A stretch of 64,000 nucleotides of DNA from Candidatus Omnitrophota bacterium (lineage in GTDB: Bacteria; Omnitrophota; Gorgyraeia; Aquiviventales; Aquiviventaceae). Both the position numbers and the translations under genes were made by a program. This document shows positions 10,517-64,000 of the stretch, piece after piece. How positions within the stretch are numbered: the first letter of the stretch is position 1; each line of letters starts with the position of its first letter. Location: positions 3,234-67,233 of the forward strand of contig JACPAY010000005.1 in the NCBI GenBank assembly GCA_016180575.1, in the 5' to 3' direction. Under the pieces are notes generated by a model. It made no database searches. It had not been told where the DNA came from and saw only the letters and a program-made list of their open reading frames with translations.

Positions 10517-10576
10517 TCGGGGACAGCCACTAATTTCCCTATGGCAGACTCAAGGAAATCAGTGGCTGTCCCCGAT
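10515..10576. repeat. Family C inverted repeat copy C1 (arm AATCGGGGACAGCCACTAATTTCC)
   Basis: 24-nt arms with one mismatch and a 14-nt loop. Overlaps the ACT-gene stop and the def start. Confidence 0.9.
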
Positions 10577-11080: not shown

Positions 11081-11164
11081 GTGAGTCACAAAGTCACAAG
11101 GTCACAAAGTCACACGTGTGACCTTGTGACCGCGTGGTAGTCTCCAGTGTGTGACCCTGCGACC
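11081..11164. repeat. Family D: inverted arrays of GTCACAA(R)/(Y)TTGTGAC 8-mers, copy D1
   Basis: Four forward units, then two plus two reverse units split by a 16-nt spacer. Lies between convergent def and mqnD. Confidence 0.85.
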
Positions 11165-22065: not shown

Positions 22066-22070
22066 CCGGG

Positions 22071-22131
22071 GCCACAACGTCACAGGGTCACACGTCACAT
22101 GCGACCTTGTGACATGTGACTCTGTGACACC
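22071..22131. repeat. Family D copy D2
   Basis: gccacaacgtcacagggtcacacgtcacatgcgaccttgtgacatgtgactctgtgacacc, between vanY-like and the permease gene. Confidence 0.8.
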
Positions 22132-24194: not shown

Positions 24195-25892
24195 ATGGAC
24201 CGGCACGAGCAGCGCGTCGTTCGCTTTCTCTCCAAGCCCTCCGCCTATCCGCATCGCGCGCCCGCCGTGGCGCGGCGGGAGACGCACGTCTCGCACGTTT
24301 TCCTGGCCGGCCCGTTCGCCTATAAGCTCAAGAAGCCGGTGAAGTTTCCGTTCCTCGATGCCTCCACGCTGGCCAGGCGCCGGCGGTTCTGCGGGCTGGA
24401 GCTCTCGCTCAACCGCCGCCTGGCGCCGGCGGTCTACCTGGGCATGGTGCCGATTGTGGAGACGCCGGCGGGGCTGCGCCTCGGTCCCTCGACTCGGCCT
24501 TCGGCCTCGCTCGGGACGTCGCCCGGACGCGACGGGGCGGGGCTCCGCGGGCACGAACGGATCATCGAGTGGGTGGTGAAGATGCGCCGCCTGCCGGAGG
24601 AGCGGATGCTGGACCAGGTGGTCGCCCGCCGGCAGCTGACCAGGGGCGACATGCTCCGCATCGCGGACCGGCTCAGCCGGTTCTTCCGGCGCGCCGCGCG
24701 GGGCCCCGCCATCGCCCGCTACGGCGCCCCGGACCAGGTGGCCGCGCTGGTCCTGGGCAACCTGGACGAGTGCCGGCCGTTCGTCGGCCGACTCTTCTCG
24801 GAGTCCGACCACCTGTTCCTCAAGGCGGCCTACCGCCAGTACCTGGCGCTCCACGAGCCGCTGCTGGCGCGGCGCGCGCGCGAGGGCCGGATCATCGATG
24901 GCCACGGCGACCTGCGGTGCGAGAACATCTGCCTGCCTGCCGCGCCGAAACGAGGAATGAAGCGTGGCGCGGCGCAGGCAGGCCTGACCAGTCCGGTCAT
25001 CTTCGACTGCGTGGAGTTTCAGCCGGCGTTCCGGTGCGGGGACATGGCCAACGATTTCAGCTTCCTCGTCATGGACCTGGAATTCCGCGGACGAGCCGAC
25101 CTGGCCGACGCCCTGGTCGCCGGGTACCGGCGCCGCCTGGGCGATGCGACCCTCGCGCAGGTCCTCCCGTTCTACAAGTGCCACCGCAGCCTCGTGCGCG
25201 GCAAGGTGCGGGCCCTGGCGTGGTCCCAGCACCCGCGCACGGCGCGGGGCCGGCGCGTGCGCGCGCTCTCCCGCCGCCACTTCCAGCTTGCGGCGCGCTA
25301 TGCACGAGCCTTCGCCCCGCCGCGGCTCGTGGCGGTCGGCGGGCTGATCGGCACCGGCAAGAGCACGCTCGCCCGCGCGCTGGCCCAGGCGCTGGGGGCC
25401 TCCTGGCTGCGCACCGACGAGATCCGGCTGCGCGAGTTCGCGCGCGCCAAGCGGCGCGGGCAGGGCTTCGCCCAAGGCCTCTACGCCCCGCACATCTCGG
25501 AGCTGGTGTACCGGCGGCTGCTCCGGCGGGCCGAGACCCTGGTGCGCGAGGGGGGCTCGGTCATCTGCGACGGGACGTTTTCGAAGGCCGCGGGGAGGGC
25601 GGCGCTGCGCGAGATCGCCAGGCGGCACGGTGGTTCGTTTCACTTCTTCGAGTGCGTGGTCCCCCGCGCGGTGGCCCTGCGCCGGGTGGCCAGGCGCTAC
25701 GCCGCGCGCGCGGATCTTTCGGAGGCGCGGCCGGAGCACTACGACCGGCTGCGGGCCGGCTTTGAGCCCCGCCCTCGGCGGGGCTGGCCGCGCCGGGACT
25801 GGACCCGGCTCTCCGACAACCGCGCGCCCCAGGCGACCGCGGCGGCCGCGCTGGCGGCGCTGCGGCGCGCATGGTCTCAATTTGGCGGGTGA
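24195..25892 (+). CDS. Bifunctional APH-like kinase domain / P-loop (AAA_33-like) ATP-binding protein
   Basis: HGDLRCENI..FDCVEF kinase motif and C-terminal GLIGTGKSTLA Walker A. Contains in-frame hairpin insert H1. The last codons and the stop come from element E1. Confidence 0.7.
   Translation: MDRHEQRVVRFLSKPSAYPHRAPAVARRETHVSHVFLAGPFAYKLKKPVKFPFLDASTLARRRRFCGLELSLNRRLAPAVYLGMVPIVETPAGLRLGPSTRPSASLGTSPGRDGAGLRGHERIIEWVVKMRRLPEERMLDQVVARRQLTRGDMLRIADRLSRFFRRAARGPAIARYGAPDQVAALVLGNLDECRPFVGRLFSESDHLFLKAAYRQYLALHEPLLARRAREGRIIDGHGDLRCENICLPAAPKRGMKRGAAQAGLTSPVIFDCVEFQPAFRCGDMANDFSFLVMDLEFRGRADLADALVAGYRRRLGDATLAQVLPFYKCHRSLVRGKVRALAWSQHPRTARGRRVRALSRRHFQLAARYARAFAPPRLVAVGGLIGTGKSTLARALAQALGASWLRTDEIRLREFARAKRRGQGFAQGLYAPHISELVYRRLLRRAETLVREGGSVICDGTFSKAAGRAALREIARRHGGSFHFFECVVPRAVALRRVARRYAARADLSEARPEHYDRLRAGFEPRPRRGWPRRDWTRLSDNRAPQATAAAALAALRRAWSQFGG
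24932..24982 (+). repeat. Family H intragenic hairpin insert H1 (51 nt, in frame)
   Basis: cctgcctgccgcgcc-16 nt-ggcgcggcgcaggcagg inside the kinase-like ORF, translated LPAAPKRGMKRGAAQAG. Confidence 0.75.
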
Positions 25893-25980
25893 CGCGGAGC
25901 CGGGGGCCCCGCCGCCCGCCCGCAGCGCAGCGAGGACGGCCGGCGGGGTGGCACAGCGGCAGGCCCCGCCAAATTGAGAC
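25874..25980 (+). mobile_element. Family E MITE-like element copy E1 (16-nt TIR GTCTCAATTTGGCGGG, GC-rich ~75-nt core)
   Basis: TIRs at 25874-25889 and 25965-25980. The left TIR encodes SQFGG plus the stop of the kinase-like gene. Confidence 0.85.
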
Positions 25981-26024
25981 AGTACCGCGCCTGGCTGGCT
26001 CGGACGTGACTCCCCGGCCAGGTG

Positions 26025-29990: not shown

Positions 29991-30053
29991 AATCGGGGAC
30001 AGCCACTAATTTCCTAGTGGTGGCCGAAGGGAAATTAGTGGCTGTCCCCGATT
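29991..30053. repeat. Family C inverted repeat copy C2
   Basis: Perfect 24-nt arms at 29991-30014 and 30030-30053. Confidence 0.9.
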
Positions 30054-30098
30054 GTTTCCCGATTGTTTCCCCAATTGTTGGCGATTGTTTGCTATAAT
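30049..30098 (+). promoter_or_regulatory. Four tandem 11-bp iterons (CGATTGTTTCC x2, CCAATTGTTGG, CGATTGTTTGC) abutting a TATAAT box
   Basis: Iterons at 30049-30092; TATAAT at 30093-30098. The first iteron overlaps the end of element C2. Confidence 0.6.
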
Positions 30099-38144: not shown

Positions 38145-40259
<2,115 letters not shown>

Positions 40260-40311
40260 GCCTCCGCTGACCGATTCGCTCACGGCCCTCCTCAGCCGCG
40301 TCAGCGCGTGG

Positions 40312-41604
40312 GTGTGGGGCCTTCCCCTCATCATCCTCCTCGTCGGCACCGGCGCGTACCTCAGCATCCTCCTGCGCGGCATCCCATTCCGCCGGCTGCC
40401 GGAGGCGCTCCACCTCGCCTTCATCCGCCGCAGGGACCCCGACAGCCCGGGAGACATCTCGCACTTCCAGGCGCTGATGACGGCGCTCTCGGCGACCGTC
40501 GGCGTCGGCAACATCGCGGGGGTGGCGACCGCCATCGCGATCGGCGGCCCGGGGGCGATGGCGTGGATGTGGCTGACCGGCCTCGTCGGGATGGCGTCGA
40601 AGTACGCCGAGGCGGTGCTGGCGGTGCGGTACCGGATCGTCAACCCGCGGGGGGAGATGTCCGGCGGCCCGATGCACTACATCGAGCAGGGCCTGCGCTG
40701 TCGGTGGCTGGCGGTCGTCTTCGCCGTGTGCGCCGCCGCGGCCGCCTTCGGGATCGGGAACATGGTCCAGGCCCATTCGGTGGCGGACGGGCTGCGGACC
40801 ACGCTGGGCATCCCGCCGGCGGCTTCCGGCGCGGTGATGACGGTGGGGACCGCCCTGGTGCTCGTCGGGGGGGTCAAGTCGATCGGCCGGGCCGCCAGCA
40901 TCGTCGCGCCGGTCATGATCCTCGTCTACGTCGCGGGGGGCGCTGCGGCGCTCATCGTCCATCGTGAGCTGCTGGGGCAGGCCCTGGTCGAGATCCTGCG
41001 CGGGGCGTTCAATCCGCCGGCGGCGGTCGGCGGGTTCGCCGGCGCGGCGTTCGCCCAGACGCTGCGCATCGGCATCGCGCGCGGGATCTTCTCCAACGAG
41101 TCGGGCCTCGGCTCCTCGCCGATCGCCGCCGCGGCCGCCCAGACGCGCGACCCGGTGCGGCAGGGGCTGGTCTCCATGAGCCAGACGTTTCTCGACACGC
41201 TCGTCGTCTGCTCCTTCACGGGCCTGGTCATCGTCGCATCCGGGGCATGGCGGTCAGGGGCGAGCGGGGCCGAGCTGACCATCCGCGCGTTCCACGACAC
41301 CCTGGGCGTCGCGGGAGCGTGGCTTGTGCCGGCGAGCCTCGTGCTGTTCGCCTACTCGACCGTCCTGGGATGGAGCTACTATGGCGAGAAGGCGGTGGAG
41401 TATCTCGGCGGGATCCGGGCCGTGGCGCCCTACCGGTGGCTGTTCTGCGGGGCGGTGTTCGTCGGCGCCGTCAGCAAGCTCGAAGCGGTCTGGTCGTTGG
41501 CGGACATCCTCAACGGCCTGATGGCCTTGCCCAACCTCGTCGCCCTCCTGATCCTCTCCCCGGTCGTCCTGGCGGAAACGCGCCGCTACTGCGGCATGCG
41601 GTAA
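40312..41604 (+). CDS. Sodium:alanine symporter (AGCS family)
   Basis: ALMTALSATVGVGNIAGVATAI and FSNESGLGSSPIAAAAA motifs. GTG start; the frame stays open upstream (possible CTG at 40267). Confidence 0.85.
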   Translation: MWGLPLIILLVGTGAYLSILLRGIPFRRLPEALHLAFIRRRDPDSPGDISHFQALMTALSATVGVGNIAGVATAIAIGGPGAMAWMWLTGLVGMASKYAEAVLAVRYRIVNPRGEMSGGPMHYIEQGLRCRWLAVVFAVCAAAAAFGIGNMVQAHSVADGLRTTLGIPPAASGAVMTVGTALVLVGGVKSIGRAASIVAPVMILVYVAGGAAALIVHRELLGQALVEILRGAFNPPAAVGGFAGAAFAQTLRIGIARGIFSNESGLGSSPIAAAAAQTRDPVRQGLVSMSQTFLDTLVVCSFTGLVIVASGAWRSGASGAELTIRAFHDTLGVAGAWLVPASLVLFAYSTVLGWSYYGEKAVEYLGGIRAVAPYRWLFCGAVFVGAVSKLEAVWSLADILNGLMALPNLVALLILSPVVLAETRRYCGMR

Positions 41605-41625
41605 TCTCCACAGCGCTCTCCCCCA

Positions 41626-44563
41626 TTACCCTGTTGGGGCCACCCGCCGTCCATCAGCCACCGCGGTCTCGGCGCCGCGAGGGGTGAGTCCGTACTGTTT
41701 GCGCTCAAGCCTGCTGAAGAGGCTGTAGGCGCATGGGACGACGAAGAGCGTCAGCAGCGTTGAAAAGACCACCCCGCCGATGACGGCGATCGCCATGGGC
41801 CGGCGGGTTTCGGCGCCTGGGCCAAGGGCGAGCGCCGGCGGCACCGCGGCGGCGATCGTCGAGATGGAGGTCATCAGGATGGCCCGAAGGCGCGACGGGC
41901 AGGCCTCCAGGAGCGCCGGCTGGACCGCCATGCCGTGCTCCCGCCGCTGGTTCGTGAAGTCCACGAGCAGGATCGAGTTCTTCTTCACGATCCCCATGAG
42001 CAGGATGAGGCCGATGAAGCTATAGATGTTGAGCGACTGGTTGAGGAGCCACAGGCCGAGGAACGCGCCCGAGATGCTGAAGGGCAGCGCCAGCAGGACG
42101 CTCACCGGATGGAGGTAGCTGTTGTACTGCGAGCCGAGCACCATGTACGACACGATGATCCCCAGGAGGAGCGCGAAGAGCAGGCTCTGGAACGATTCCT
42201 TGAACGTCTCGCTGCTGCCCCCGAACACCACCCGGTAGCCCTCCGGCACGACCTCGCGCGCGAGCTGCTGCACGTCGGCCATGGCCGCGGCCTGCGATTG
42301 GCCGGGCGCGATGTTGGCGAAGACGTTGATGGCGCGCTCGCGGTTCTTGCGGGTGATGGTGAGCAGCGTCGGCTTCTCCGTCAGGGCGACCACGTCCTTG
42401 AGCTGGACCAGCTCGCCGTGCGTGTTCCACAGCCACAGCCGCTCGATGTCCTCGGCCTGCGTCCGCTGGGAGGGGACCAGGCGGACCCGGATGTCGTAGC
42501 GCCGGCCGCCGCGCGTGTACTTGCCCACCCGCTGGCCGCCGATCAGGGCGTTGACCGTCTGGGCGATCGTCTGCATGCTGACCCCGCGCTCGGCCGCCTG
42601 CTTGCGGTCCGGCCGCACGCGGACCTCGGGGATCCCCGTCAGGTAGTCGGTGTCCACGTCCACCATGCGCGGGCTCTCGCCCATCCGGCGCTCCAAGTCG
42701 AGGGCGGTGTTGGCCAGGACGTCCCAATCCGGGCCGCGGATGGAGAGCTCGATCGGGAAGCCGCGCTGGGCCGAGAAGCCGGACATCGAGAGGTCCTGGA
42801 TCCGCGCCTTGACGTCCGGAATCGCGCTCATCTCCTTCCGGAACAGGTCCATGAGCGCCTGCTGGGAGAGGTCGCGCTTGTTGGGCGGCACGAGGGTGAC
42901 AAACAGGACCCCGGTGTTGACCTCGCCGCCGCCGAACCCGCCGATCGCGCCGAAGTAGCGCCGCATCTCGGGCCGGCTCATCGCGAGGGCCTCGGCCGCC
43001 TTGAACTTCTCATCCGTGAATTCGATGGATGAGCCCACCGGCGTCTGCAGCCGGATGAGGAACATGCTCTGGTCCTGGCTCGGCACGAACTCCTTGCGCA
43101 GGAACGGGAAGACGCCCAGCGAGGAGACGAGGAAGACGACCAGCGACGCGCCGAGCACGGCCCATCGGTGGTTGAGCACGCCGGGCAGCACCCGGCGGTA
43201 GCCTGCCTCAAGGCCCCGGAAGCCCCGCTCCACCGCCCGGCCGAGACGGCCGCTGCGCGCGCCGACCCGGAGGAACTGCGAGCAGCGCATGGGGGCGAGG
43301 GTCAGCGCCTCGAGCAGGGAGAGCGCCACCGCGACCGAGATGGTCACGCCGAACTCGAAGAAGAACTTACCGATGATGCCGGTCATGAACGCCACGGGCA
43401 GGAAGATGGCGATGATCGCCAGGGTGGCCGCAAGCGCCGCGCCGGTGATCTGCCGCGCGCCCATCCGGGCCGCCTCCACCCGCCCGAGGCCGTGCTCGCG
43501 CTGGCGGACGATGTGCTCGAGCACCATGATGGCGTCGTCCACGACGATGCCGATGGCGAGCGAGGATGGACTCCTCGACGAACCGGGTGCGGTCGAAGTT
43601 GATGCCGAGCGAGATGCCCGGCGGCAGCTCTCGCTGCACCTCGGCCATGCGCTCCTTGACGCGGCGCGCCACCGCAACCTCGTTGGCCCCGCGCTGCTTC
43701 TTGATGCCGAGGCCCACCGCCGTCTCGCCCATGATCCGGGAGATGCGCCGCACGTCCGCCAGCCCGTCCTCCACGATTGCGACATCCTTGAGGTAGATGG
43801 GGGCGTAGATCGGCTGCCCCGCGCGGCGGGTGATCAGGATCTTCCCGAACTCCTCCACGCTGGCCGCCTCGCCGAGCGCGCGCACGTTGAGCTCCTGCGT
43901 GCCGGTCTCGATGCGGCCGCCCGGCATCTCGACGTGCTCGCGCTGGATGGCGTCGATGACATCGGCGACGGTGAGCTGGTAGGCGGCGAGCTTGTCCGCA
44001 TCGATCCAGACGCGCAGGTTGCGCTCGACCCAGCCGCCGAGGAAGATCTCGCCCACCCCGTTGATCGTCTGGAACCGGTCCTTGAGGTGGTCCTGGACGT
44101 ACTCCATGAGGTCGCGCTTGGGGACGTCCCCCGAAACGCCGAGCCACATGATGGGGTTGTCCTGCGGGTTCTGCTTGGTGACGATGGGGGGATCGAGGTC
44201 ATCCGGCAGGCGCAGCTGGGCCTGGGCGAGCTTGGTCTGCACCTCCTGGAGCGCGACGTCGATGTCGCGGTCCAGGTCGAACTCGATGGTGATGTTGGCG
44301 CTCCCCTGGCGCGTGGTGGAGGAGATGTCCCGGATGCCCTGGATGCTCATGACGACATCTTCCACGACGTCCACGACGTCGGTCTCCATGACCCCCGGCG
44401 CCGCGCCCTCCCAGTCCAGGCTGACGTTGAGGACGGGGAACTCGACGTCCGGCATCTGGCTGACCCCCATCCGCGAATAGCCGATGCCGCCGAACAGAAT
44501 CAGGGCGGCCATCAGCATCCAGGCGAAGACCGGGTTCTTGATGGAGAAATCAGAGAGCGTCAT
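41626..44563 (-). pseudogene. RND (AcrB/HAE1-type) efflux transporter disrupted by an internal deletion plus frameshift
   Basis: N-terminal ORF (44563 down to ~43565, ...RTRFVEESI) and C-terminal ORF (from ...LAIGIVVDDAIMV to 41626) are in different frames. About 60 residues (two TMs) that separate these motifs in AcrB are absent. Confidence 0.8.
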
Positions 44564-45872
44564 GGGGAAGCTCGCCTGTGGCGACGAGCAGCTGCCAGTA
44601 GAGGCGCTTCAGCTCGTAGTCGGCGCGGATGACCTCGCGCCGGGCGTCCTCGAGGTCCTGGAGCGTCTCGAGGACGTCGAGGGTGTTCACGAGGCTCAGC
44701 CGGTAGTCCTCCAGCTGGAGCCGGTAGTTCTCCTCCGCCGCCTGCCAGGCCTGGTCCAGCGCCCGGGCGCGCGCGACGGCGGCCTGCAGCAGCGCGTAGC
44801 GGTCGCGGATGTCCAGCTCGGCCTGCCGCCGGGTCTGCTCGAACCGGAGCTGGGCCTGCCGGGCGCGCGAGGCCGCGGAGCGCACGGCGCCCTTGGCGCT
44901 GCCGCCCTGGAAGATGGGGACGTCCACCGTGAGCAGGACGTCCCACTCGACATCCTTCGCGTTGCCGACCCGCTCCGTGTAGTAGTTCCCCTCAAGGTCC
45001 ACCTCCGGCCAGTAGTCGGCGCGCGCGACCGCGGTCTCATGCTGCGCGAGGCGCCAGGCCTCTTCCGCGGCCCGGACATCCGGACGAGCTGCCGCCTTGC
45101 CCACGTACGCGCCCTCCGGCGCCAGCTCGCCGAGCGGGATCTCCTGATCGGCGACGCCCTCCAGGCGGGGCAGTCCGGTCAGGAACTCGAGGAGCTGCCG
45201 GGCCGTCGTCTCCGCGCTCCGCGCCTGCTCCATCTCGGCCTCGACGCGGCGCAGCTGCGCCTCGACGCTGGCGACCTCGCTCGCGCGCGATCGGCCCAGG
45301 CGCCTGCGGTCCTCCAGCTCCTCGATGCGGGCGAGCAGCGTGGCGCGGATCGTCTCCAGGGCGAAGAGGTCGCGCCGCTGCTCCGTCAGGAGGTAGAAAG
45401 CGTCGGCGACATCCACGAACAGCAGCTGCTCGGCCCGGGCCTTCTCGTGCAGCCGCCCCTGCCGCTCGGCGCGCGCCCCGGCCACGGCGGCGAACTCCTT
45501 GAATCCGGTGAAGAGCGGCTGGGTGAACGTGAACCGCCGCTCCGGGATGTGCTTGAGGGTGAAGGCGGTCGCGCCGGTCCCATCCTGCCGCTTGTCTGTG
45601 GAGACAAACGAGACGTCCGGCAGGGCGCTGCCGAGCGCCTGGAGGAAGCGGCCGCGGGTCTCCTCGAGCCGCTCCCCGCTGATGGCGATCTCCTCGCTGC
45701 GCTTGAGGGCGAGGGCGAAGCAGTCGGCGAGGGTCAACAGCCGGCCGGCTGCCGCCGAGTCGGGCTGTTCCTGCTGCGGGGGGATGGGGACGAGGATCTC
45801 CTGAGCGGCGGCCGGGGTGGCGAGGGCGATCGTGAAGCAGAGCAGGAGCAGCGGAAGGCGTAAGGGCGCCAT
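44550..45872 (-). CDS. TolC-family outer membrane efflux protein
   Basis: Signal peptide and two-repeat TolC pattern. Overlaps the RND gene start by 14 nt. Confidence 0.8.
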   Translation of the reverse strand: MAPLRLPLLLLCFTIALATPAAAQEILVPIPPQQEQPDSAAAGRLLTLADCFALALKRSEEIAISGERLEETRGRFLQALGSALPDVSFVSTDKRQDGTGATAFTLKHIPERRFTFTQPLFTGFKEFAAVAGARAERQGRLHEKARAEQLLFVDVADAFYLLTEQRRDLFALETIRATLLARIEELEDRRRLGRSRASEVASVEAQLRRVEAEMEQARSAETTARQLLEFLTGLPRLEGVADQEIPLGELAPEGAYVGKAAARPDVRAAEEAWRLAQHETAVARADYWPEVDLEGNYYTERVGNAKDVEWDVLLTVDVPIFQGGSAKGAVRSAASRARQAQLRFEQTRRQAELDIRDRYALLQAAVARARALDQAWQAAEENYRLQLEDYRLSLVNTLDVLETLQDLEDARREVIRADYELKRLYWQLLVATGELPHDAL

Positions 45873-45873
45873 G

Positions 45874-46311
45874 TCATCGGCCCGCCGCTTGCAGCTGGCC
45901 CCGGAGCTTGGTGACGACCTCGTGGAACGCCGCCAGCTCGTGCGGCTCGAGCGAGACGAGCGCCTCCTCCCACCGGCGGCGGACAACCTGTTCAAAGTCC
46001 TGGAAGAACGCCCGCCCCTTGGGCGTCAGCTCGACGAGGACCTGCCGCCGGTCGTCGGCCTGCGGGACGCGCCGGACGAAGCCCGACCGGACGAGGCGCT
46101 CGACGATCCCGCTCGCCGTCGGCATGGTGACATGGAGGTTCCGGGCGAGCGTCCCCATGGGGCACCGGGTGTAGGCCCGGATGGCCCCCATCACGAGGAA
46201 CTGCGTCTGGGTCACGCCCCGCCGGACGAAAAACTCCAGCTGAATGCCCCGCAGGATGTGGGGCATCAGCCGGGCGACCCCCAGGCTGACGTCTTTCCGT
46301 GTCAGGCGCAT
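45874..46311 (-). CDS. MarR family transcriptional regulator
   Basis: Winged-helix pattern TQTQFLVMGAI...LARNLHVTMPTASGIVERLV..GFV.R..D..DRR. Confidence 0.85.
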   Translation of the reverse strand: MRLTRKDVSLGVARLMPHILRGIQLEFFVRRGVTQTQFLVMGAIRAYTRCPMGTLARNLHVTMPTASGIVERLVRSGFVRRVPQADDRRQVLVELTPKGRAFFQDFEQVVRRRWEEALVSLEPHELAAFHEVVTKLRGQLQAAGR

Positions 46312-46332
46312 ATTAGCTAAATATTAGCTTAT
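46311..46332. promoter_or_regulatory. Candidate MarR operator
   Basis: attagctaaatattagcttata: direct ATTAGCT repeat containing the palindrome TTAGCTAA, abutting the marR start. Confidence 0.35.
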
Positions 46333-46357
46333 ACAAACTAATTCGTCAAGGCGCCCA

Positions 46358-46385
46358 GAAAAAATAGGAACCGGTACCGTTTTTC
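46358..46385. repeat. Family A palindrome copy A5
   Basis: gaaaaaataggaaccggtaccgtttttc, in the marR / IMPase divergent region directly upstream of TACAAT. Confidence 0.8.
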
Positions 46386-46387
46386 AG

Positions 46388-46393
46388 TACAAT
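46388..46393 (+). promoter_or_regulatory. -10 box TACAAT 6 nt before the IMPase ATG (leaderless-type)
   Basis: cagtacaatagcggcATG, immediately after element A5. Confidence 0.4.
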
Positions 46394-46399
46394 AGCGGC

Positions 46400-47188
46400 A
46401 TGGGCAGCCAACGGGCGTTGCTGGGCTGGGTCGAGCGCCAGGTCCTCGCCTGCCGGCCGATCGCCCTGCGGCACTTCCGCTCCCGGGCGCTCCGCGTCGA
46501 GCGCAAGAGCGACCGGTCGCCCGTGACCGCCGCGGACCGGGCCATCGAAGCGCGGCTGCGGCGGGCGCTCGCGCGGGCCTGTCCGGGGGAGAGCATCGTC
46601 GGGGAGGAGTTCGGGCGCACAGGGCGCGATCGCGCCACCTTCTGGACGCTCGACCCCATCGACGGGACCCGGGCGTTCTCCCGCGGCCTGCCGTCCTGGG
46701 GCATCATGGTCGGCCGGGTGGAGCGCGGGCGGCCCGCCTTGGGCCTCATCGACTTTCCCGCCGTCGGGGTGACCATCGGCGTGGCGCCGGGGGTGGCGGC
46801 GTATGAGCGGGGCAGGGGCGGGACGAGCCGGCTGCCTCGCCCGAGGGCCGTGCGGTCGCTGCGGGAGGCGGTGATTTTCCACGGCGGTGCGCACTGGTGG
46901 CAATCCACGCGGTATGCCGCCGGGTTTGTCCGGGTCGCGCGCGCCTGCTTCCTCGAGCGCGCCTACGGGGACTGCTATGGGTACCTGTGGGCGCTGCGCG
47001 GCGGCGCGGACGCGGTGCTCGATTACGGGGTCAAGGTCTGGGACCTGGTGCCGCTGGCCGCGCTGGCCCGGGCGACGGGCCGCGCGCTGACCGACTGCCG
47101 CGGCCGCCCTTCCTGGACCGGGCCGGACTCCATCTTCGCCTCGCCACCCCTTGCCCGCCTCATCGCCAGCACGCTCAGGCATGCCTGA
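46400..47188 (+). CDS. Inositol monophosphatase family protein
   Basis: SPVTAADRAIE, WTLDPIDGT and WDLVPLAAL motifs. Confidence 0.8.
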   Translation: MGSQRALLGWVERQVLACRPIALRHFRSRALRVERKSDRSPVTAADRAIEARLRRALARACPGESIVGEEFGRTGRDRATFWTLDPIDGTRAFSRGLPSWGIMVGRVERGRPALGLIDFPAVGVTIGVAPGVAAYERGRGGTSRLPRPRAVRSLREAVIFHGGAHWWQSTRYAAGFVRVARACFLERAYGDCYGYLWALRGGADAVLDYGVKVWDLVPLAALARATGRALTDCRGRPSWTGPDSIFASPPLARLIASTLRHA

Positions 47189-48491
47189 GTTCGCCTTCCC
47201 GGACGGCTTCCTCTGGGGCAGCGCCACCTCCGCCCACCAGGTCGAGGGGGACAACGTCCACAGCGACTGGTGGGCGTGGGAGCAGGCCGGCCGCGTGAAG
47301 GAGCCCTCCGGGCTCGCCTGCGACCACTACCGGCGCTTCGCGCAGGATTTCGACCTCGCAGCGGAGCTGGGACACAACGCGCACCGCTTCTCGGTTGAGT
47401 GGAGCCGCCTCGAGCCCGCGGAGGGCCGGTGGGACGAGGCGGCGCTTGCGCACTACGTCGAGGTGGTGCGCGCGCTCCGCGCGCGGCGCCTGGAGCCGAT
47501 CGTGACGCTCCACCACTTCACCACCCCCCAATGGTTCGCCTTGCGGGGCGGATGGGTGCGGCCGGACTCGGTGGAGGCCTTCGCGCGGTATGTCCGCCGG
47601 GTCGCCGCGGCGCTGGGCGATTCGGTCCGGTACTGGGTCACCATCAACGAGCCGATGGTCTATGTCCGGATGCATTACATTCAGGGATTGGGCCCGCCCG
47701 GCGCCCGCGACCTCCCGCAGGCGCTCCGCGTCATCGAGCATCTCATCCGCGCCCACGCGGCCGCCTACCGCGTGCTGCACGGCGCGCGCCGCGGGCCAGG
47801 CCCGGCCCCGCAGGTCAGCGTCGCCCATCACGCCCCCGCCTTCGGGCCGTGCCGGCGGTGGTGGCCGCCGGACCGCTGGATGGCCGCGCGGACCGACCGC
47901 GTGTTCAACTGGGCGCTCCTCGAGGCGCTGACCGAGGGCCGGTGGGTCGTGCCCGGAGTGGGGAAGTGGCGCATCCCGGAGGCCGCAGCGACGCTCGACT
48001 ATGTCGGCGTGAACTTCTACGGGCGGCAGTTCATCCAGTGGGCCCCCGCGGCGGGCGCGTGGCCCGGCGCGAGCTGCGACCTGGGACACCATCCGCGGGA
48101 GGTCACCGAGCGCACCTCGTACGGCTGGGATGTGCACCCGGCCTCCTTCGTGCAGGTCCTCTCGCGCATCGGGCGGATGGGGCGGCCGATCCTCGTGACG
48201 GAAAACGGCACCTACATGCAGGACGACGCCAGGCGCTGGGACTTCATCCTGCGCCACGTGCAGGCGATGGCGCGCGCGTTCCAGCAGGGCGCGCGGATCA
48301 TCGGCTACTGCTACTGGTCGCTCCTCGACAACTTTGAGTGGGCGGATGGGTTCGGCCCGCGCTTCGGCCTGGCGGAGGTGGACTACGCGACCCAGCGGCG
48401 GACCATCCGAGACAGCGGCCGCCGGTACGCGGAGATCTGCCGCGCCAACCGCGTGGAAATCGGGGACATGGAAATCGGGGACAGCCACTAA
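47181..48491 (+). CDS. GH1 beta-glucosidase
   Basis: FLWGSATSAHQVEG, TINEP (acid/base) and VTENG (nucleophile) motifs. The last ~10 codons and the stop are encoded by element C3. Confidence 0.85.
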   Translation: MPEFAFPDGFLWGSATSAHQVEGDNVHSDWWAWEQAGRVKEPSGLACDHYRRFAQDFDLAAELGHNAHRFSVEWSRLEPAEGRWDEAALAHYVEVVRALRARRLEPIVTLHHFTTPQWFALRGGWVRPDSVEAFARYVRRVAAALGDSVRYWVTINEPMVYVRMHYIQGLGPPGARDLPQALRVIEHLIRAHAAAYRVLHGARRGPGPAPQVSVAHHAPAFGPCRRWWPPDRWMAARTDRVFNWALLEALTEGRWVVPGVGKWRIPEAAATLDYVGVNFYGRQFIQWAPAAGAWPGASCDLGHHPREVTERTSYGWDVHPASFVQVLSRIGRMGRPILVTENGTYMQDDARRWDFILRHVQAMARAFQQGARIIGYCYWSLLDNFEWADGFGPRFGLAEVDYATQRRTIRDSGRRYAEICRANRVEIGDMEIGDSH

Positions 48492-48544
48492 TTTGCGAAT
48501 GGGAACAATTGTGTCCAGGCTTAAATTAGTGGCTGTCCCCGATT
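48455..48544. repeat. Family C inverted repeat copy C3 with 15-nt tandem duplication of the left end
   Basis: ggaaatcggggacat/ggaaatcggggacagccactaattt ... aaattagtggctgtccccgatt. Confidence 0.85.
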
Positions 48545-48548
48545 GTTG

Positions 48549-49392
48549 ATGCGGGCGTTGGTGCTGGGGGCGACCGGGCATATCGGGCTGCCCCTGGGTG
48601 TTCCATGCCGCTGGCTACTATCCCCGGTTTCGAGAGCGGCGCAAGGAGGCCATCGAGCGGGGCCTCCGGTCCACGCGCCGTCTCCTCGAGCAGCTCCGGC
48701 GGATGGGCCCCGCGCGCATCGTCTTCACGAGCAGCGCAGCCACCATCCGGCGCGTGCCCGGGCGGCCGGCGACCGAAGCGGACGCCGAGCCCTGGCCGCC
48801 GGCCGAGTGGCGGCCGCTCTACGCGACGGTCAAACTCGCGATGGAGCACGAGGTGCTGGAGGCCTGCCGGGGCGGGCTGCCCGCCGTCGTGGTGAACCCC
48901 AGCCTCTGCGTCGGGGAGTACGACGCGCGGCCCTTCTCCGGCCGGGCCGTCCTGGCATTCGCCCGGCCCGGCATCCCGGTCTACGTGCGGCACACCTTCA
49001 ACGCGGTCTACACCGGCGACGTCGCCATTGGGCACCTCCGCGCGGCCGAGCGGGGGCGTCTCGGCGAGCGCTATCTCCTCGTCGGCCGCAACGTGACCCT
49101 GCGGGAGTTCGCAACGCTCGTCGCCCGGGCGGCCGACGTGTGCCCGCCGCGGTGGCGCGTCCCGTACGGCCTCGTGTGGGCCGCGGCCGTCTCGACGGAG
49201 GCCGCCGCCTGGCTGGCGCGCACCGAGCCGTTGCTGCCGCGGGGTGCTGTCCACTCGCTGCGGATGGGACAGCTGCTGGATGGGACGAAGGCGCTGCGGG
49301 AGCTCGCGCTGCCCCAGACGCCGCTTGAGGAAGCCATCCGGCGGGCGCTTGCGTGGTTTAAGTTGCTTCCTTCCGGTATCAGATACCGGTAA
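48549..49392 (+). pseudogene. NAD-dependent epimerase/dehydratase with internal deletion and frameshift
   Basis: MRALVLGATGHIG Rossmann start (frame of 48549) is joined after ~16 codons to VFHAAGYY... (frame of 48598). About 50 residues normally between these motifs are missing. Confidence 0.7.
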
Positions 49393-49427
49393 AATAAACG
49401 GGTTAGTAGGCCGGTATCTGATACCGG
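49373..49427. repeat. Family B inverted repeat copy B3
   Basis: ccggtatcagataccgg ... ccggtatctgataccgg. Encodes the last codons (GIRYR) and the stop of the epimerase pseudogene. Confidence 0.85.
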
Positions 49428-49441
49428 AACGGGAGGCGCTC

Positions 49442-49771
49442 ATGCGATACGTGATGGCCGGGTTCGCCTTGGTGCTGGCGGTCGGCTGGCCGGCCGGGGC
49501 GGAGGCGCGCGACAAGCCTGTCGAAGAGCTGACGCAGGACATGTGGACGCTCGCGTTCGCATGGACCGAGCCGATCAAGCACGTGGTCAAGGAAACGCGC
49601 CGGTTCGACCCGGTGAGCGGCTTCTGGTTTGGATTGCTCGAGGGGTCCATCAAGTCGTTCGAACGGACGGCCGCAGTCTTCTTCCCGCCGCCGCAGGAGG
49701 CGCCGGAGGAGCAGCCGGGCGGGCCGAAACACGAGCCGCTCGAAGAGCCGCTCCTGCGCTACACCTTCTGA
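49442..49771 (+). CDS. Small secreted hypothetical protein (possibly TIGR04073-like)
   Basis: Signal peptide ending AGAEA. AWTEPIKHVVKE...GLLEGSIKSFERTAA is reminiscent of the 23739-24110 product. Confidence 0.45.
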   Translation: MRYVMAGFALVLAVGWPAGAEARDKPVEELTQDMWTLAFAWTEPIKHVVKETRRFDPVSGFWFGLLEGSIKSFERTAAVFFPPPQEAPEEQPGGPKHEPLEEPLLRYTF

Positions 49772-49775
49772 CGCG

Positions 49776-50990
49776 ATGGCCGATTGGCTGAACGGCGTGC
49801 TGAGCCAGCACGGCCTCTGGTGGGGGCTGCCCGCCGTCTTCCTCGTGGGGCTCTCCCTCAACCTCACGCCATGCGTCTACCCCATGATCCCGGTGACCTT
49901 CGCCTTCTTCAGCAGCCAGGCCGCAGGCTCGCTGGGGCGAGCCGCGCGGCTCGCGGGCTGCTACGTCCTGGGGGTCGCGCTGATGTACGCGGCGCTCGGG
50001 CTTGCTGCGGCAAAAACCGGCGCGCTCTTCGGATCCTGGCTGCAGCACCCCGCCGTGCTGGCGGCCCTTGCCGCCGTCATCGTCGCGCTCGCCCTCAGCA
50101 TGTTCGGCCTGTATGAGCTGCGGCCCCCGCGCGCATTGATCCGCCGGCTCGGCACGGCCTCGGCCGGGGCCTGGGGCGCCTTTCTCATGGGCGCGGTGGT
50201 CGGCCTCGTGGCCGCGCCGTGCATCGGGCCGGTCGTCTTGAGCCTCCTCCTGTTGGTGAGCCAATTGGGCGATCCGTTCGCCGGGTTCCTCCTCTTTCTC
50301 GTCATGGGGTTGGGGATGGGCGCGCCGTACGTCGCGCTCGGGGTCGCGGCGGACCGGGTCGGGCAGCTGCCCAAGGCGGGCGCGTGGCTCGTCTGGAGCA
50401 AGAAGGCGCTCGGCCTGCTCCTGCTCGGCCTTGCGCTCTTCTTCCTCAAGCCGCTGCTGCCCGGACAGGCGCCGCGGCTCTTGGGGGCCGCGTTGCTGGC
50501 GGGCGGCGGGATGTACCTCGGGTGGCTTGAGCGCAGCCGCGGACGGCGGGCGGCCTTCACCCGCGTGCGCCGGGTGGTCGGGGGGCTGCTCATCGCAGCG
50601 GCGCTCGTGATGGCAGTGCCGCGGCCCCGACTGGCATCGCCGGTCGCCTGGATCCCCTACACCGCGGCGTCGCTGGAAGAGGCCCAGCGGAGCGGCCGGC
50701 CGATCCTCATCGACATTTACGCGGATTGGTGCATCCCCTGTGTTGAGATGGAGCACGTCACGTTCCGGGATCCCACCGTCGCGCAGGCGCTGCAGTCGGT
50801 GGCGACGCTGCGGGTGGACGCGACGCGGGGGGTGTCGAAGGAGGCGGAGCGGTTCCTTTCGCGCCACCGCGTTTACGGCGCGCCGACGATGCTGTTCTTC
50901 GACCGGACCGGTCATGAGCGGGAGGACCTGCGGCTGCTGGGGTTCGCGGCGCCCGACGAATTCCTCGAGCGGCTGCAGCAGGTGTTGTGA
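49776..50990 (+). CDS. dsbD: DsbD/CcdA-type thiol:disulfide interchange protein with C-terminal thioredoxin domain
   Basis: LNLTPCVYPMIP and AAPCIGP membrane Cys motifs plus a WCIPC thioredoxin motif. Confidence 0.8.
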   Translation: MADWLNGVLSQHGLWWGLPAVFLVGLSLNLTPCVYPMIPVTFAFFSSQAAGSLGRAARLAGCYVLGVALMYAALGLAAAKTGALFGSWLQHPAVLAALAAVIVALALSMFGLYELRPPRALIRRLGTASAGAWGAFLMGAVVGLVAAPCIGPVVLSLLLLVSQLGDPFAGFLLFLVMGLGMGAPYVALGVAADRVGQLPKAGAWLVWSKKALGLLLLGLALFFLKPLLPGQAPRLLGAALLAGGGMYLGWLERSRGRRAAFTRVRRVVGGLLIAAALVMAVPRPRLASPVAWIPYTAASLEEAQRSGRPILIDIYADWCIPCVEMEHVTFRDPTVAQALQSVATLRVDATRGVSKEAERFLSRHRVYGAPTMLFFDRTGHEREDLRLLGFAAPDEFLERLQQVL

Positions 50991-51004
50991 GCGGCCAAGG
51001 TGCT

Positions 51005-51116
51005 GTCTCAATTTGGCGGGTCCTGCCGCGCCGCCACCCCGCCGGCTGTCCTCGGCCTCCTGGCCTGCGGGCAGGCGGCGGGGGCCTCGGCTCCGCGTCA
51101 CCCGCCAAATTGAGAC
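51005..51116 (-). mobile_element. Family E MITE-like element copy E2 (inverted relative to E1)
   Basis: TIRs at 51005-51020 and 51101-51116. The reverse complement of the core aligns with the E1 and E3 cores. Confidence 0.85.
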
Positions 51117-51220
51117 ACGACCGCGGCCAAACCGGGGTTGAACGCCGTGCGGGGCTCTGCTAAACTGAACATGTGAACTCGGTCGCGACTTTGGGTGCGG
51201 AACGGACAGGGAGGTGCGGG

Positions 51221-56990: not shown

Positions 56991-57090
56991 GTCACAAAGT
57001 CACACAGAGGAGAAGCTGCACGCGGTCACAATGTCACATGGCTTCATGGCCAGTCCACCTTGTGACTTTGTGACCTTGTGACTTTGTGAC
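56991..57090. repeat. Family D copy D3
   Basis: 2+2 forward units and 4 reverse units (cttgtgactttgtgaccttgtgactttgtgac), between nuoD and nuoI. Confidence 0.85.
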
Positions 57091-57108
57091 TTCATAGGAG
57101 TATCTGCA

Positions 57109-61756: not shown

Positions 61757-62145
61757 GCGGCGACGGAGCGCTCCGTCTCCCACACCCGGACGCAGGTGAC
61801 CGGAAAGCCCTGGGAGGCGGCGTGCTCGAAGATCAGCCGGGCGATCGCCTCGGCGGTCGGGTTGTCGTCGAGCAGGAAGACCGGCTCATGCCGCTCCCGC
61901 AGGAGCGGCGCCACCGGATCGTCGCGGTGCAGCAGCATCTTGTGGTCCAGCTCCTGGTCGATCCACGCCTGCACCACCCGCTTGATCTCGTCGAAATCCC
62001 GCACCATCCCCCTGCGGTCCAGCGTCCGGCTGCTCAGCTCGATCTCGACCTTCCCGTTGTGCCCGTGCAGGTAGCGGCACTTGCCCTGATAGTTCAGGAG
62101 CCGGTGGCCGTAGCAGAACTCGATAACTTTGGTAACTGCATACAT
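61660..62145 (-). CDS. queD: 6-carboxy-5,6,7,8-tetrahydropterin synthase
   Basis: FCYGHRL...C..LHGHN motif of the PTPS/QueD family. Confidence 0.85.
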   Translation of the reverse strand: MYAVTKVIEFCYGHRLLNYQGKCRYLHGHNGKVEIELSSRTLDRRGMVRDFDEIKRVVQAWIDQELDHKMLLHRDDPVAPLLRERHEPVFLLDDNPTAEAIARLIFEHAASQGFPVTCVRVWETERSVAAYRPDAAVRRRPRAGRRAARRRAAARSISTAA

Positions 62146-62148
62146 GGC

Positions 62149-62207
62149 GTCACAAGGTCACAAGGTCACAAGGTCACATGTGACGTGTGACGCTGTGACG
62201 TTGTGAC
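62149..62207. repeat. Family D copy D4 (most regular)
   Basis: gtcacaag x3 + gtcaca | tgtgac gtgtgac gctgtgac gttgtgac, starting 4 nt from the queD ATG. Confidence 0.9.
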
Positions 62208-62217
62208 CCACAATGGG

Positions 62218-63132: not shown

Positions 63133-63432
63133 TCAACCGGCCCGCTTCTGCAGCTGCTCGACCATCTTGTTGATCGACCGGGCCAGATCCTCCAGCGCAT
63201 CCCCCTGGCGCAGCTGGACGCGCTGCGAGAAGTCTCCCTGGCCGATGGCCTGCAGGGCCCGCTTCAGGCGGTTCATGGGCCCGATGACGCGGTGGCTCTG
63301 CCGGATCCCCAACATGAAGATCAGGGGGATCGCCAGGAGCAGCTCGACGAGGAGGGTGACGGCGATCGTGATGAGCGCGACAACCAGGATGCGCGCGTCG
63401 CGGTCCGGGGCGTAGAGGTTGTTCCAGACCAC
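63133..63432 (-). CDS. Small membrane-anchored HAMP-domain protein
   Basis: One TM, then the HAMP pattern IGPMNRLKRALQAIGQGDFSQRV....DALEDLARSINKM. GTG start inferred. Confidence 0.5.
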   Translation of the reverse strand: MVWNNLYAPDRDARILVVALITIAVTLLVELLLAIPLIFMLGIRQSHRVIGPMNRLKRALQAIGQGDFSQRVQLRQGDALEDLARSINKMVEQLQKRAG

Positions 63433-63498
63433 AGGTACTGCTTGCGCGGATGCGGCGGCTGGCCGGGCATGGCGCCGGCCAGTATAGCACGGTGCTGA

Positions 63499-63527
63499 TT
63501 GACTTTTCCACGACGGTTTGTTACTGT
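63499..63527 (+). promoter_or_regulatory. Candidate queC promoter
   Basis: TTGACT - 17 nt - TACTGT; ATG is 15 nt downstream. Confidence 0.4.
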
Positions 63528-63541
63528 GCAACTTTGGATGC

Positions 63542-64000
63542 ATGTCCAAACTCTTGACGCCCATCTGCGTGCTCGCAAGCGGCGGGCTCGACAGCGCAGC
63601 GCTCCTCATCCGATGCCTCAAGGCGGGCGGCCGGGTCGCTCCGCTCTACCTCCGGTGCGGGTTCGTCTGGGAGGCGGCTGAGCTGCACTGGCTCCGGCGC
63701 TTTCTCCGGTCGGTGCGGTCGCCTCGCCTCCTGCCGCTTCAGGTGCTGGATGTCCCGCTGCGCTCCACGTACGGCGCCCATTGGAGCTTGACCGGGCGCC
63801 GCGTCCCGGGGGCCTCCAGCGCGGACGAGGCGGTCTACCTCCCCGGCCGCAACGTGCTCCTGCTCGCTCACGCCGCCGTCCGCTGCGCCCAGCGGGGCAT
63901 CACGACGATCGCCATCGGCACGCTCGCGGGCAATCCCTTCGGCGACGGTTCGCCGCGCTTCTTCCGCGGGATGAGCGCCTGCCTCTCCCTGGCGCTGCGC
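63542..64000 (+). CDS. queC: 7-cyano-7-deazaguanine synthase, 3' end outside window
   Basis: VLASGGLDSAAL PP-loop. Frame is open from ATG 63542 to the window end (153 codons); absent from the ORF track because it has no stop. Confidence 0.85.
   Translation, partial: MSKLLTPICVLASGGLDSAALLIRCLKAGGRVAPLYLRCGFVWEAAELHWLRRFLRSVRSPRLLPLQVLDVPLRSTYGAHWSLTGRRVPGASSADEAVYLPGRNVLLLAHAAVRCAQRGITTIAIGTLAGNPFGDGSPRFFRGMSACLSLALR

What the first reader, a model, noticed from the sequence alone, without database searches (positions are those of the whole stretch)
48549..48610. Epimerase/dehydratase gene with a third ~50-codon internal deletion; the three lesions cluster between 38 and 49 kb
- **This lesion:** MRALVLGATGHIGLPLG is joined out of frame to VFHAAGYY. 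That removes the whole beta2-beta4 region of the Rossmann fold.
- **Clustering:** together with hppA (39.9 kb) and the RND gene (43.6 kb), three unrelated genes within ~10 kb have lost 50-60 codons each. The other ~70 genes in the window look intact.
- **Explanation 1:** local relaxed selection or gene decay.
- **Explanation 2:** hairpin- or microhomology-mediated deletions. One possibility is imprecise loss of intragenic palindromic inserts such as family H; this is pure inference.
- **Explanation 3:** consensus or assembly artefacts.
Basis: inference. Interest (0 to 1): 0.58.

Follow-up and report, generated by a model that had tools for sequence, protein, structure and literature searches.

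The report
Assembly joins mimicking internal gene deletions
Three genes in this draft genome of an uncultured groundwater bacterium each lack 135-182 bases, but an independent assembly of the same population has the epimerase gene whole, so the "deletions" are most likely places where the draft was stitched together with sequence left out: ordinary, but the faulty proteins are now in public databases.

Summary
The epimerase gene lacks exactly 152 nt after window position 48585. An RND pump gene lacks 182 nt at 43565|43564. The pyrophosphatase gene hppA lacks 135 nt, in frame, after about 39888. Each gap is clean and removes conserved native coding sequence. No other lesion of this kind was found in about 57 other genes of the window.

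The window comes from a public metagenome-assembled genome: Candidatus Omnitrophota, proteins MBI2104457-65, California groundwater project PRJNA640378. That project used 150-bp paired reads, MEGAHIT contigs, and then the IDBA-UD scaffolder.

An independent Logan assembly of a run from the same SRR accession series matches the window at 1268 of 1268 flanking bases, yet it contains the 152 nt and encodes an intact 331-aa epimerase. Other same-strain contigs repeatedly break next to the lesions, and SNP clusters there show co-existing strains. The missing segment is not a hairpin, not a repeat insert, and has only 3 nt of junction homology. Apart from the gaps, the genes show no decay.

Best explanation (about 0.75): contig joins written without the unassembled gap sequence, which is a known class of local assembly error. 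Main rival (about 0.18): real deletion alleles in a sub-population. No same-strain intact copy was found for hppA or the RND gene, so for those two the artefact reading is inferred. Interest is low.

The parts
48549..48585 (+). Epimerase 5' remnant. It encodes MRALVLGATGHI plus the first base of Gly13, so the GxxGxxG NAD-binding motif is present. It ends at the junction, whose exact position is ambiguous by 3 nt (GGC).
48586..49392 (+). Epimerase 3' part in the +1 frame: GCPWVFHAAGYY... to the stop. NCBI annotates it from GTG 48598 as a 'complete' 264-aa protein, MBI2104463.1.
   Evidence: It is 100% identical to the intact Logan allele P0121/L073.
48585..48586 (+). Junction 3. 152 nt are missing here. 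They encode AHIVRALLAEGHQVRAAFRTDRFLHVLDGLPVERVRVDLDSLDGLPAALD(G).
   Evidence: L073 matches the window at 48200-48586 and 48586-49467 with 0 mismatches and carries an extra 152 nt. Searches show the segment in relatives.
43565..44563 (-). RND (AcrB-type) efflux pump gene, N-terminal 333 codons. These match Pfam PF00873 profile positions 2-330.
41626..43564 (-). RND efflux pump gene, C-terminal ~646 codons in another frame. These match profile positions 393-1020 and begin at the helix carrying the VVDD motif. This gene has no protein accession of its own among the neighbouring NCBI numbers.
43564..43565 (-). Junction 2. 182 nt (about 61 codons, two transmembrane helices by position) are missing, which causes a frameshift.
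   Evidence: eight sister loci all carry the segment; 33 loci support the gap and none spans it without a gap.
38145..40259 (+). hppA, a membrane pyrophosphatase. It is a single 704-aa ORF, annotated by NCBI as complete (MBI2104457.1).
39888..39889 (+). Junction 1. 135 nt (45 codons, in frame) are missing. They correspond to roughly residues 602-650 of the Thermotoga enzyme 4AV3.
   Evidence: L061 alignment; PDB alignment; Pfam shows two stretches with a jump in the profile.
40025..40070 (+). Cluster of SNPs between same-population contigs from different sequencing runs. Five independent contigs start at 39996-40074, just right of junction 1.

Best explanation
The three 'deletions' are assembly artefacts in a metagenome-assembled genome, not lesions in the organism.

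**Proposed mechanism.**
- In this stretch the short-read assembly broke into separate contigs, probably because closely related strains co-exist and differ here.
- Read pairs then ordered the contigs during scaffolding.
- The joins were written with no placeholder for the 135-182 nt that lay unassembled between contig ends. This could happen because the scaffolder estimated the gap as zero or negative and abutted or trimmed the contigs, or because gap Ns were later removed.
- Gene callers then read straight through the joins. The result is one in-frame shortened hppA, one frameshifted RND gene and one truncated epimerase.

**What is shown.**
- The same population has an intact epimerase.
- The pipeline included IDBA-UD scaffolding.
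- Independent contigs break beside the lesions.

**What is inferred.**
- The junctions are scaffold joins.
- The exact software step responsible.
- The hppA and RND gaps have the same cause as the epimerase gap.
For: 1. **Source.** The window's proteins are MBI2104457-65 of an NCBI Candidatus Omnitrophota MAG on a 79,908-bp contig. Same-population contigs come from runs SRR12113383-433. [quoted passage not shown]
2. **Intact allele in the same population.** Logan contig L073 (SRR12113422) equals the window over 48200-49467 with 0 mismatches, but has the extra 152 nt and encodes an intact 331-aa epimerase.
3. **Deleted versions are seen only in the MAG.** The deleted gene products (the 264-aa epimerase and the 704-aa hppA) occur only in the NCBI MAG. 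Four of five intact neighbouring proteins looked up (MarR, phosphatase, hypothetical protein, DsbD-like protein, TolC) occur in up to three further Logan contigs each; the fifth, the GH1 glycosidase, is also NCBI-only.
4. **Independent contigs break beside the lesions.**
   - Left ends lie at 39996-40074 in five runs; the hppA lesion is at 39888.
   - One left end lies at 48673; the epimerase lesion is at 48585.
   - No contig retrieved in the look-ups made covered 42150-44435, which holds the RND lesion.
   - SNP clusters at 40025-40070 and 41926-32, and a contig (L074) that switches to a divergent RND gene, show co-existing strains.
5. **Little other difference.** Over about 8 kb of same-strain independent contigs, the 152 nt is the only difference longer than 1 nt.
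6. **No decay and no biological deletion signature.** The ORFs are otherwise clean. The missing segment is native conserved coding DNA. It is not a hairpin, z = -0.17. Junction homology is only 3 nt.
7. **Size class.** All the gaps (135, 152, 182 nt) are shorter than the library insert, as gaps bridged by read pairs must be.
8. **Where such lesions occur.** A scan of 83 related sequences (1.06 Mb) for clean internal deletions supported by at least 3 orthologues found three. Two were the window's RND and epimerase lesions. The third was a 79-nt frameshifting deletion in TolC of L038, a scaffold from the same project.
[quoted passage not shown] One example genome of 1.13 Mb had 13 of them (PMC7111523).
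Against: - No reads could be mapped, so lack of read support at the junctions is not shown.
- No same-strain intact copy was found for hppA or the RND gene. The artefact reading is direct only for the epimerase. Even there, an intact allele in another run is also compatible with a real polymorphism.
- It is not known which sequencing run the MAG was built from.
- The window has no N runs. IDBA-UD scaffolds elsewhere do carry Ns at gaps (L006). A join without Ns therefore needs an extra assumption, and my recollection of how the IDBA scaffolder treats negative gap estimates is unverified.
- Other scaffolds from the same project showed no such lesion in the genes that could be compared, so this is not a systematic feature of every join.
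Confidence: 0.75

Rival explanations
1. The deletions are real alleles. Under this reading, a sub-population (the one dominant in the sample used for the MAG) has lost 135, 182 and 152 nt from hppA, the RND pump gene and the epimerase gene. Other members of the same population keep the genes intact.
For: - The sequence is in the public record as such, and an intact allele co-exists in another run. That is what a polymorphism would also look like.
- Strain heterogeneity is demonstrable in this region.
- A 3-nt junction homology (GGC) is compatible with illegitimate recombination.
Against: - It needs three independent gene-killing deletions of one narrow size class within 9 kb, in a lineage with zero SNPs against the intact allele over 1268 nt.
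- No independent assembly carries any of the three junctions or the deleted proteins.
- Contig ends in other runs lie 87-186 nt away from the deletion boundaries. With the short k-mers Logan uses (my recollection), a deletion bubble would instead place them within a k-mer length of the boundary. SNP clusters explain the observed ends instead.
- The hppA gap removes about 45 residues of membrane-embedded sequence (one transmembrane helix by my recollection of the 4AV3 topology), and the RND gap removes about two.
Confidence: 0.18
2. This is fixed gene decay under locally relaxed selection. The three genes are old pseudogenes of this species.
For: Three unrelated genes are disrupted close together.
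Against: - The same population has an intact epimerase with identical flanks.
- None of the three genes has any further frameshift, stop or loss of codon bias.
- Genes between the lesions are intact: the alanine symporter, TolC, MarR, the phosphatase and GH1.
- All relatives keep the genes whole.
Confidence: 0.03
3. The gaps are hairpin-mediated or repeat-mediated excisions. Examples would be imprecise loss of an intragenic palindromic element of the kind that litters the intergenic regions of this genome.
For: - The genome is rich in palindromic intergenic repeats. One ends 2 nt before the epimerase start codon.
- Another is a ~140-nt insertion relative to sister genomes, at 50997-51137.
Against: - The missing DNA is ordinary conserved coding sequence in every relative, and no relative has an insert at these sites.
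- The 152-nt segment with its flanks folds no better than shuffles, z = -0.17.
- No direct or inverted repeat brackets the breakpoints.
Confidence: 0.02

Closest known systems
Local assembly errors and scaffold-join errors in short-read metagenome-assembled genomes (described by Chen et al. 2020, Genome Res, PMC7111523)
   Same: - Errors confined to a few hundred bases inside otherwise correct scaffolds.
- Produced by an IDBA-UD-based workflow.
- They yield incomplete or incorrect protein genes that enter public databases.
- The source project used this kind of workflow without a reported correction step.
   Different: - The paper describes unsupported consensus sequence, Ns inserted despite overlap, and wrong repeat numbers. 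It does not specifically describe clean loss of 135-182 nt with no Ns.
- Read support could not be examined here.
Bacterial pseudogenes formed by internal deletion
   Same: A gene is interrupted by loss of an internal segment, with or without a frameshift. NCBI evidently treats the RND gene as a pseudogene, because it gives it no protein accession.
   Different: - There are no additional disabling mutations.
- An intact allele with identical flanks exists in the same population.
- Three events share one size class within 9 kb.
Microhomology-mediated deletion (replication slippage or illegitimate recombination)
   Same: The junction is clean with 3 nt of shared sequence, GGC.
   Different: - In DNA that is 69% G+C, 3 nt of homology is no more than chance.
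- No hairpin or longer repeat is present.
- The breakpoints in hppA and the RND gene cannot be evaluated without the same-strain intact allele.

Membership tests
Local assembly / scaffold-join error in a MAG | The junction is not supported by any perfectly matching read, and clipped reads rebuild the missing sequence. | not testable with these tools
   No read data or read mapper is available. This is the decisive test.
Local assembly / scaffold-join error in a MAG | An independent assembly of the same population contains the missing sequence and has identical flanks. | tested here: met
   Met for the epimerase only: L073 has 0 mismatches over 1268 nt plus the extra 152 nt. Not obtained for hppA or the RND gene.
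Local assembly / scaffold-join error in a MAG | The sequence was produced by a workflow that joins contigs by read pairs. | tested here: met
   MEGAHIT contigs were scaffolded with IDBA-UD using 150-bp paired reads. The link from the window to this project rests on its NCBI protein accessions and on exact-match contigs from one SRR accession series. That those runs and the accessions belong to PRJNA640378 is my inference (accession neighbourhood).
Local assembly / scaffold-join error in a MAG | The lesions lie where assemblies tend to break (contig ends, strain variation). | tested here: inconclusive
   Independent contigs end 87-186 nt from two of the lesions, and no contig retrieved here covered the RND lesion region. 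SNP clusters are present. This is suggestive, but the MAG's own contig ends are unknown.
Pseudogene by decay | Further disabling mutations or loss of coding signal have accumulated. | tested here: not met
   Clean ORFs and strong third-position GC bias on both sides of each junction. The epimerase remainder is identical to the intact allele.
Pseudogene by decay | The lesion is shared by the whole population or species. | tested here: not met
   An intact allele exists in run SRR12113422. All relatives are intact.
NAD-dependent epimerase/dehydratase (extended SDR, Pfam PF01370) | N-terminal GxxGxxG dinucleotide-binding motif. | tested here: met
   GATGHIG at residues 7-13 of the 5' remnant.
NAD-dependent epimerase/dehydratase (extended SDR, Pfam PF01370) | A complete Rossmann fold between the glycine motif and the VFHxAA strand. 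| tested here: not met
   Profile positions about 18-67 are absent from the window sequence. They are present in the intact allele P0121.
NAD-dependent epimerase/dehydratase (extended SDR, Pfam PF01370) | Catalytic Ser/Thr and the YxxxK motif. | tested here: met
   TSS and YATVK are present in the 3' part (translation, alignment).
Membrane pyrophosphatase (Pfam PF03030) | Continuous match to the full profile, i.e. all transmembrane helices present. | tested here: not met
   Two stretches: residues 26-582 match profile positions 1-525 of 645, then the match jumps. 45 residues are missing relative to L061, and ~45-50 residues relative to 4AV3.
RND efflux permease (Pfam PF00873) | Continuous match to the full profile in one reading frame. 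| tested here: not met
   Profile positions 2-330 are in one frame and 393-1020 in another. 182 nt are missing.

The most novel reading that the evidence does not exclude
The deletions are real. In that case a very recent sub-lineage of this Omnitrophota population suffered one clustered mutational episode, for example error-prone end-joining repair of several breaks in a 9-kb stretch. That episode removed 135-182 nt from three genes at once, and the lineage rose to dominance in one groundwater sample despite losing its membrane pyrophosphatase, an efflux pump and an epimerase.
Probability: 0.12. Interest if true: 0.4.

Novelty: not a real feature. Interest (0 to 1): 0.08.

Why it matters
Biologically it matters little, because the organism most likely has all three genes intact.

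In practice it matters in three ways:
- The public record holds a 704-aa 'complete' pyrophosphatase that lacks about 45 internal residues.
- It holds a 264-aa 'complete' epimerase with a false start.
- It holds an RND pump that appears to be treated as a pseudogene (it has no protein accession). Metabolic or pseudogene surveys of uncultured phyla would read all three as gene loss.

The case also shows a cheap check: look up the neighbouring proteins in independent assemblies of the same sequencing project.

Tried and rejected
1. **Same-strain intact hppA and RND fragments.**
   - I ran two searches of the 5.8-billion-protein database, using a 264-aa hppA segment and a chimeric RND+hppA junction query.
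   - Only relatives at 92% identity or less turned up.
   - The tool seems to list only proteins up to about 1.75 times the query length, so a full-length intact hppA could have been missed.
2. **Exact-protein look-ups of flanking genes, to fetch contigs that reach the hppA and RND junctions.**
   - Contigs carrying the alanine symporter start 108-186 nt short of the hppA junction.
   - Contigs carrying TolC stop 0.9 kb short of the RND junction.
   - The DUF502 gene was not on record with either start tried.
3. **Scan of JGI metagenome contigs** for the left flank of the epimerase junction: no match.
4. **Idea that the scaffolder was biased by about one read length, so that every join loses ~150 nt: rejected.** Other scaffolds of the same project show no such lesion in comparable genes, and the one other case (L038) lost 79 nt.
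5. **Naming the source MAG.**
   - The best fit is NC_groundwater_243_Ag_S-0.2um_69_17 (JACPAY).
   - This rests on the window's 69.1% G+C, a supplementary-table search restricted to Omnitrophica genomes of 68-72% G+C, and the accession order.
   - That MAG comes from the same sample assembly as L038.
   - An attempt to confirm it through an L038 protein look-up failed, so it stays an inference.
6. **Hairpin or repeat mechanisms:** tested and rejected.

Full report
**What is in the sequence**

The ATG at 48549 opens MRALVLGATGHIG, the glycine-rich NAD-binding motif of an extended short-chain dehydrogenase. From 48586 the conserved sequence continues in the +1 frame, as (G)CPWVFHAAGYYPRF... to the stop at 49392.
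- Pfam's epimerase profile PF01370 matches from residue 18 of the joined protein to profile position 68, so about 50 profile positions are skipped.
- Homologues of 326-331 aa all carry about 51 residues between GHIG and CPWVFH.
- DNA alignment to close relatives shows one clean gap of 152 nt.
Strand beta4 (VFHAAG) is retained.

- The RND pump gene (44563 to 41626, minus strand) lacks 182 nt at 43565|43564. This corresponds to Pfam PF00873 positions 331-392. Eight sister loci all carry the segment.
- hppA (38145-40259) lacks 135 nt, in frame, after about 39888. This is relative to L061. The solved Thermotoga enzyme 4AV3 has ~45-50 residues there that hppA lacks. By my reading this removes about one membrane helix.

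**Clustering**
- A codon-position GC scan of all six frames flagged no other frameshift.
- Pfam scans of about 57 further ORFs all gave end-to-end profile coverage.
- Three lesions within 8.7 kb of a 64-kb window is mildly non-random, p about 0.05 by my calculation.
- Lesions in genes without a Pfam match, or in intergenic DNA, would not have been seen.

**Where the window comes from**
- The 264-aa product that starts at GTG 48598 is NCBI protein MBI2104463.1.
- hppA, MarR, a phosphatase, a hypothetical protein (locus tag HYT90_02620) and a DsbD-like protein are MBI2104457-65. All sit on a 79,908-bp contig of a Candidatus Omnitrophota MAG.
- Contigs encoding exactly the same proteins come from Logan assemblies of runs SRR12113383-433. 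I take these to be the California groundwater project of He et al. 2021.
[quoted passage not shown] It mentions no correction of local errors (PMC7906910).
- The window's G+C is 69.1%. I searched the supplementary tables only for Omnitrophica genomes of 68-72% G+C. Together with the accession order, the hits point to NC_groundwater_243_Ag_S-0.2um_69_17. This identification is an inference.

**The key result**

The 90%-identity cluster of the truncated epimerase has a second member, P0121. It is 331 aa, comes from Logan, and is identical to the window protein except that it contains the missing 51 residues.

Its contig L073 (SRR12113422, 1420 nt) aligns to window 48200-49467 with 0 mismatches and a single 152-nt insertion at the junction. 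The breakpoint has 3 nt of ambiguity (GGC). So the same population, at the level of zero SNPs in 1268 nt, has an intact gene.

**Context from other independent contigs**

Same-strain contigs cover 39996-42150, 44435-47660 and 48200-51028.
- Apart from a few SNPs and a 1-nt gap at one contig end, the 152 nt is the only difference longer than 1 nt from the window across these contigs.
- Their ends cluster next to the lesions. Five contigs begin at 39996-40074, and the hppA lesion is at 39888. One begins at 48673, and the epimerase lesion is at 48585.
- No contig retrieved in the look-ups made here covers 42150-44435, which holds the RND lesion.
- Between runs there are SNP clusters at 40025-40070 and 41926-32.
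- One contig (L074) matches the window almost perfectly up to about 41.9 kb (through the symporter gene), then drops to roughly 75-90% identity in the RND gene.

Related strains therefore co-exist and differ exactly in this stretch. That is the usual reason short-read assemblies fragment, and it would explain why three joins fall close together.

The deleted proteins themselves are found only in the NCBI MAG. Four of five intact neighbours looked up are also found in Logan contigs; the GH1 glycosidase is NCBI-only.

**Tests of the biological alternatives**
- The missing segments are native, conserved coding DNA in every relative. They are not inserts.
- The 152-nt segment with its flanks folds no better than shuffled sequence, z = -0.17. 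No repeat brackets the breakpoints.
- Apart from the gaps, the three genes show no decay.
- A scan of 83 sequences (the window plus all fetched loci, 1.06 Mb) looked for clean internal deletions supported by at least three orthologues. It returned three hits.
  - Two were the window's RND and epimerase lesions.
  - The third was a 79-nt frameshifting deletion in TolC of L038.
  - L038 is a scaffold from the same project and, if my identification of the MAG is right, from the same sample assembly.
- None of the loci from other projects showed such a lesion.

**Interpretation**

The best-supported explanation is a join between neighbouring contigs that was written without the unassembled 135-182 nt.
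- All the gaps are shorter than the library insert, as gaps bridged by read pairs must be.
- Chen et al. 2020 describe local assembly errors as prominent in IDBA-UD output and as a source of wrong protein genes in databases (PMC7111523).
- The exact step is not established. My recollection is that the IDBA scaffolder abuts or trims contigs when its gap estimate is not positive, but I could not verify this.
- The window and all loci from this project lack N runs. An older IDBA-UD scaffold from another project (L006) has them.

The main rival is that the deletions are real alleles of a sub-population. An intact allele in another run does not exclude this, and no same-strain intact copy was found for hppA or the RND gene. 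I put it at about 0.18, for these reasons:
- It needs three gene-killing events of one size class within 9 kb, in a lineage with no SNPs against the intact allele.
- No independent assembly shows any of the junctions.

Fixed gene decay and repeat-mediated excision are effectively excluded.

**Verdict**

The feature is most likely not biological. Interest is low, apart from the caution about erroneous proteins in public databases. Read mapping at the three junctions would settle it.

Noticed in passing
window 10515-10580, 29991-30056, 48473-48547: A ~72-nt palindromic repeat family (AATCGGGGACAGCCACTAATTT ... AAATTAGTGGCTGTCCCCGATT). The copy at 48473-48547 overlaps the stop codon of the GH1 glycosidase gene and ends 2 nt before the epimerase ATG. 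The close relative L001 shares its right arm.
   Followed up: partly
window 50993-51128; related copies at 13477-13564 and 25874-25986: A composite palindromic element of about 140 nt. At 50997-51137 it is an insertion relative to the sister loci L002, L003 and L082, which suggests a mobile miniature element. Several Logan contigs end inside it.
   Followed up: partly
window 11084-11126, 22063-22129, 57057-57095, 62141-62209: Arrays of the 8-nt unit GTCACAAG/GTCACAAA, arranged as inverted repeats in intergenic regions. Their function is unknown.
   Followed up: no
window 40255-40314: The alanine/sodium symporter gene is called from GTG 40312. However, coding signal and a family-typical N-terminus (...LTDSLTALLSRVSAWVWG) run about 19 codons further upstream with no ATG, GTG or TTG. 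The start may be non-canonical (CTG 40267 or ATT 40255). Logan contig L078 is identical here, so this is not an assembly issue.
   Followed up: partly
window 63133-63645 (minus strand): A short ORF whose only Pfam match is a HAMP linker domain at its very C-terminus, directly abutting the next gene. It could be a truncated sensor protein or a small stand-alone protein.
   Followed up: no
L038 ~467-470: Another MAG scaffold of the same project (NC_groundwater_241, assembly S5_GD2017_2_S2) has a clean 79-nt frameshifting deletion in its TolC gene relative to six orthologues.
   Followed up: partly
L034 1169-1553: The RND gene of NC_groundwater_710 carries about 270 extra in-frame nucleotides. 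They encode a hydrophobic segment of about 90 aa that is absent from all other orthologues and has no similarity elsewhere in the fetched loci. This could be a real insertion or a misassembly.
   Followed up: partly
L074 (Logan, SRR12113419) versus window 40073-43547: This contig matches the window almost perfectly up to about 41.9 kb (through the symporter gene). It then drops to roughly 75-90% identity through the RND gene. It is either a strain mosaic (recombination) or a chimeric contig.
   Followed up: partly
window 48454-48483: A perfect 15-nt tandem duplication at the 3' end of the GH1 gene, giving ...EIGDMEIGDSH*. It is also present in the independent contig L073, so it is real.
   Followed up: yes
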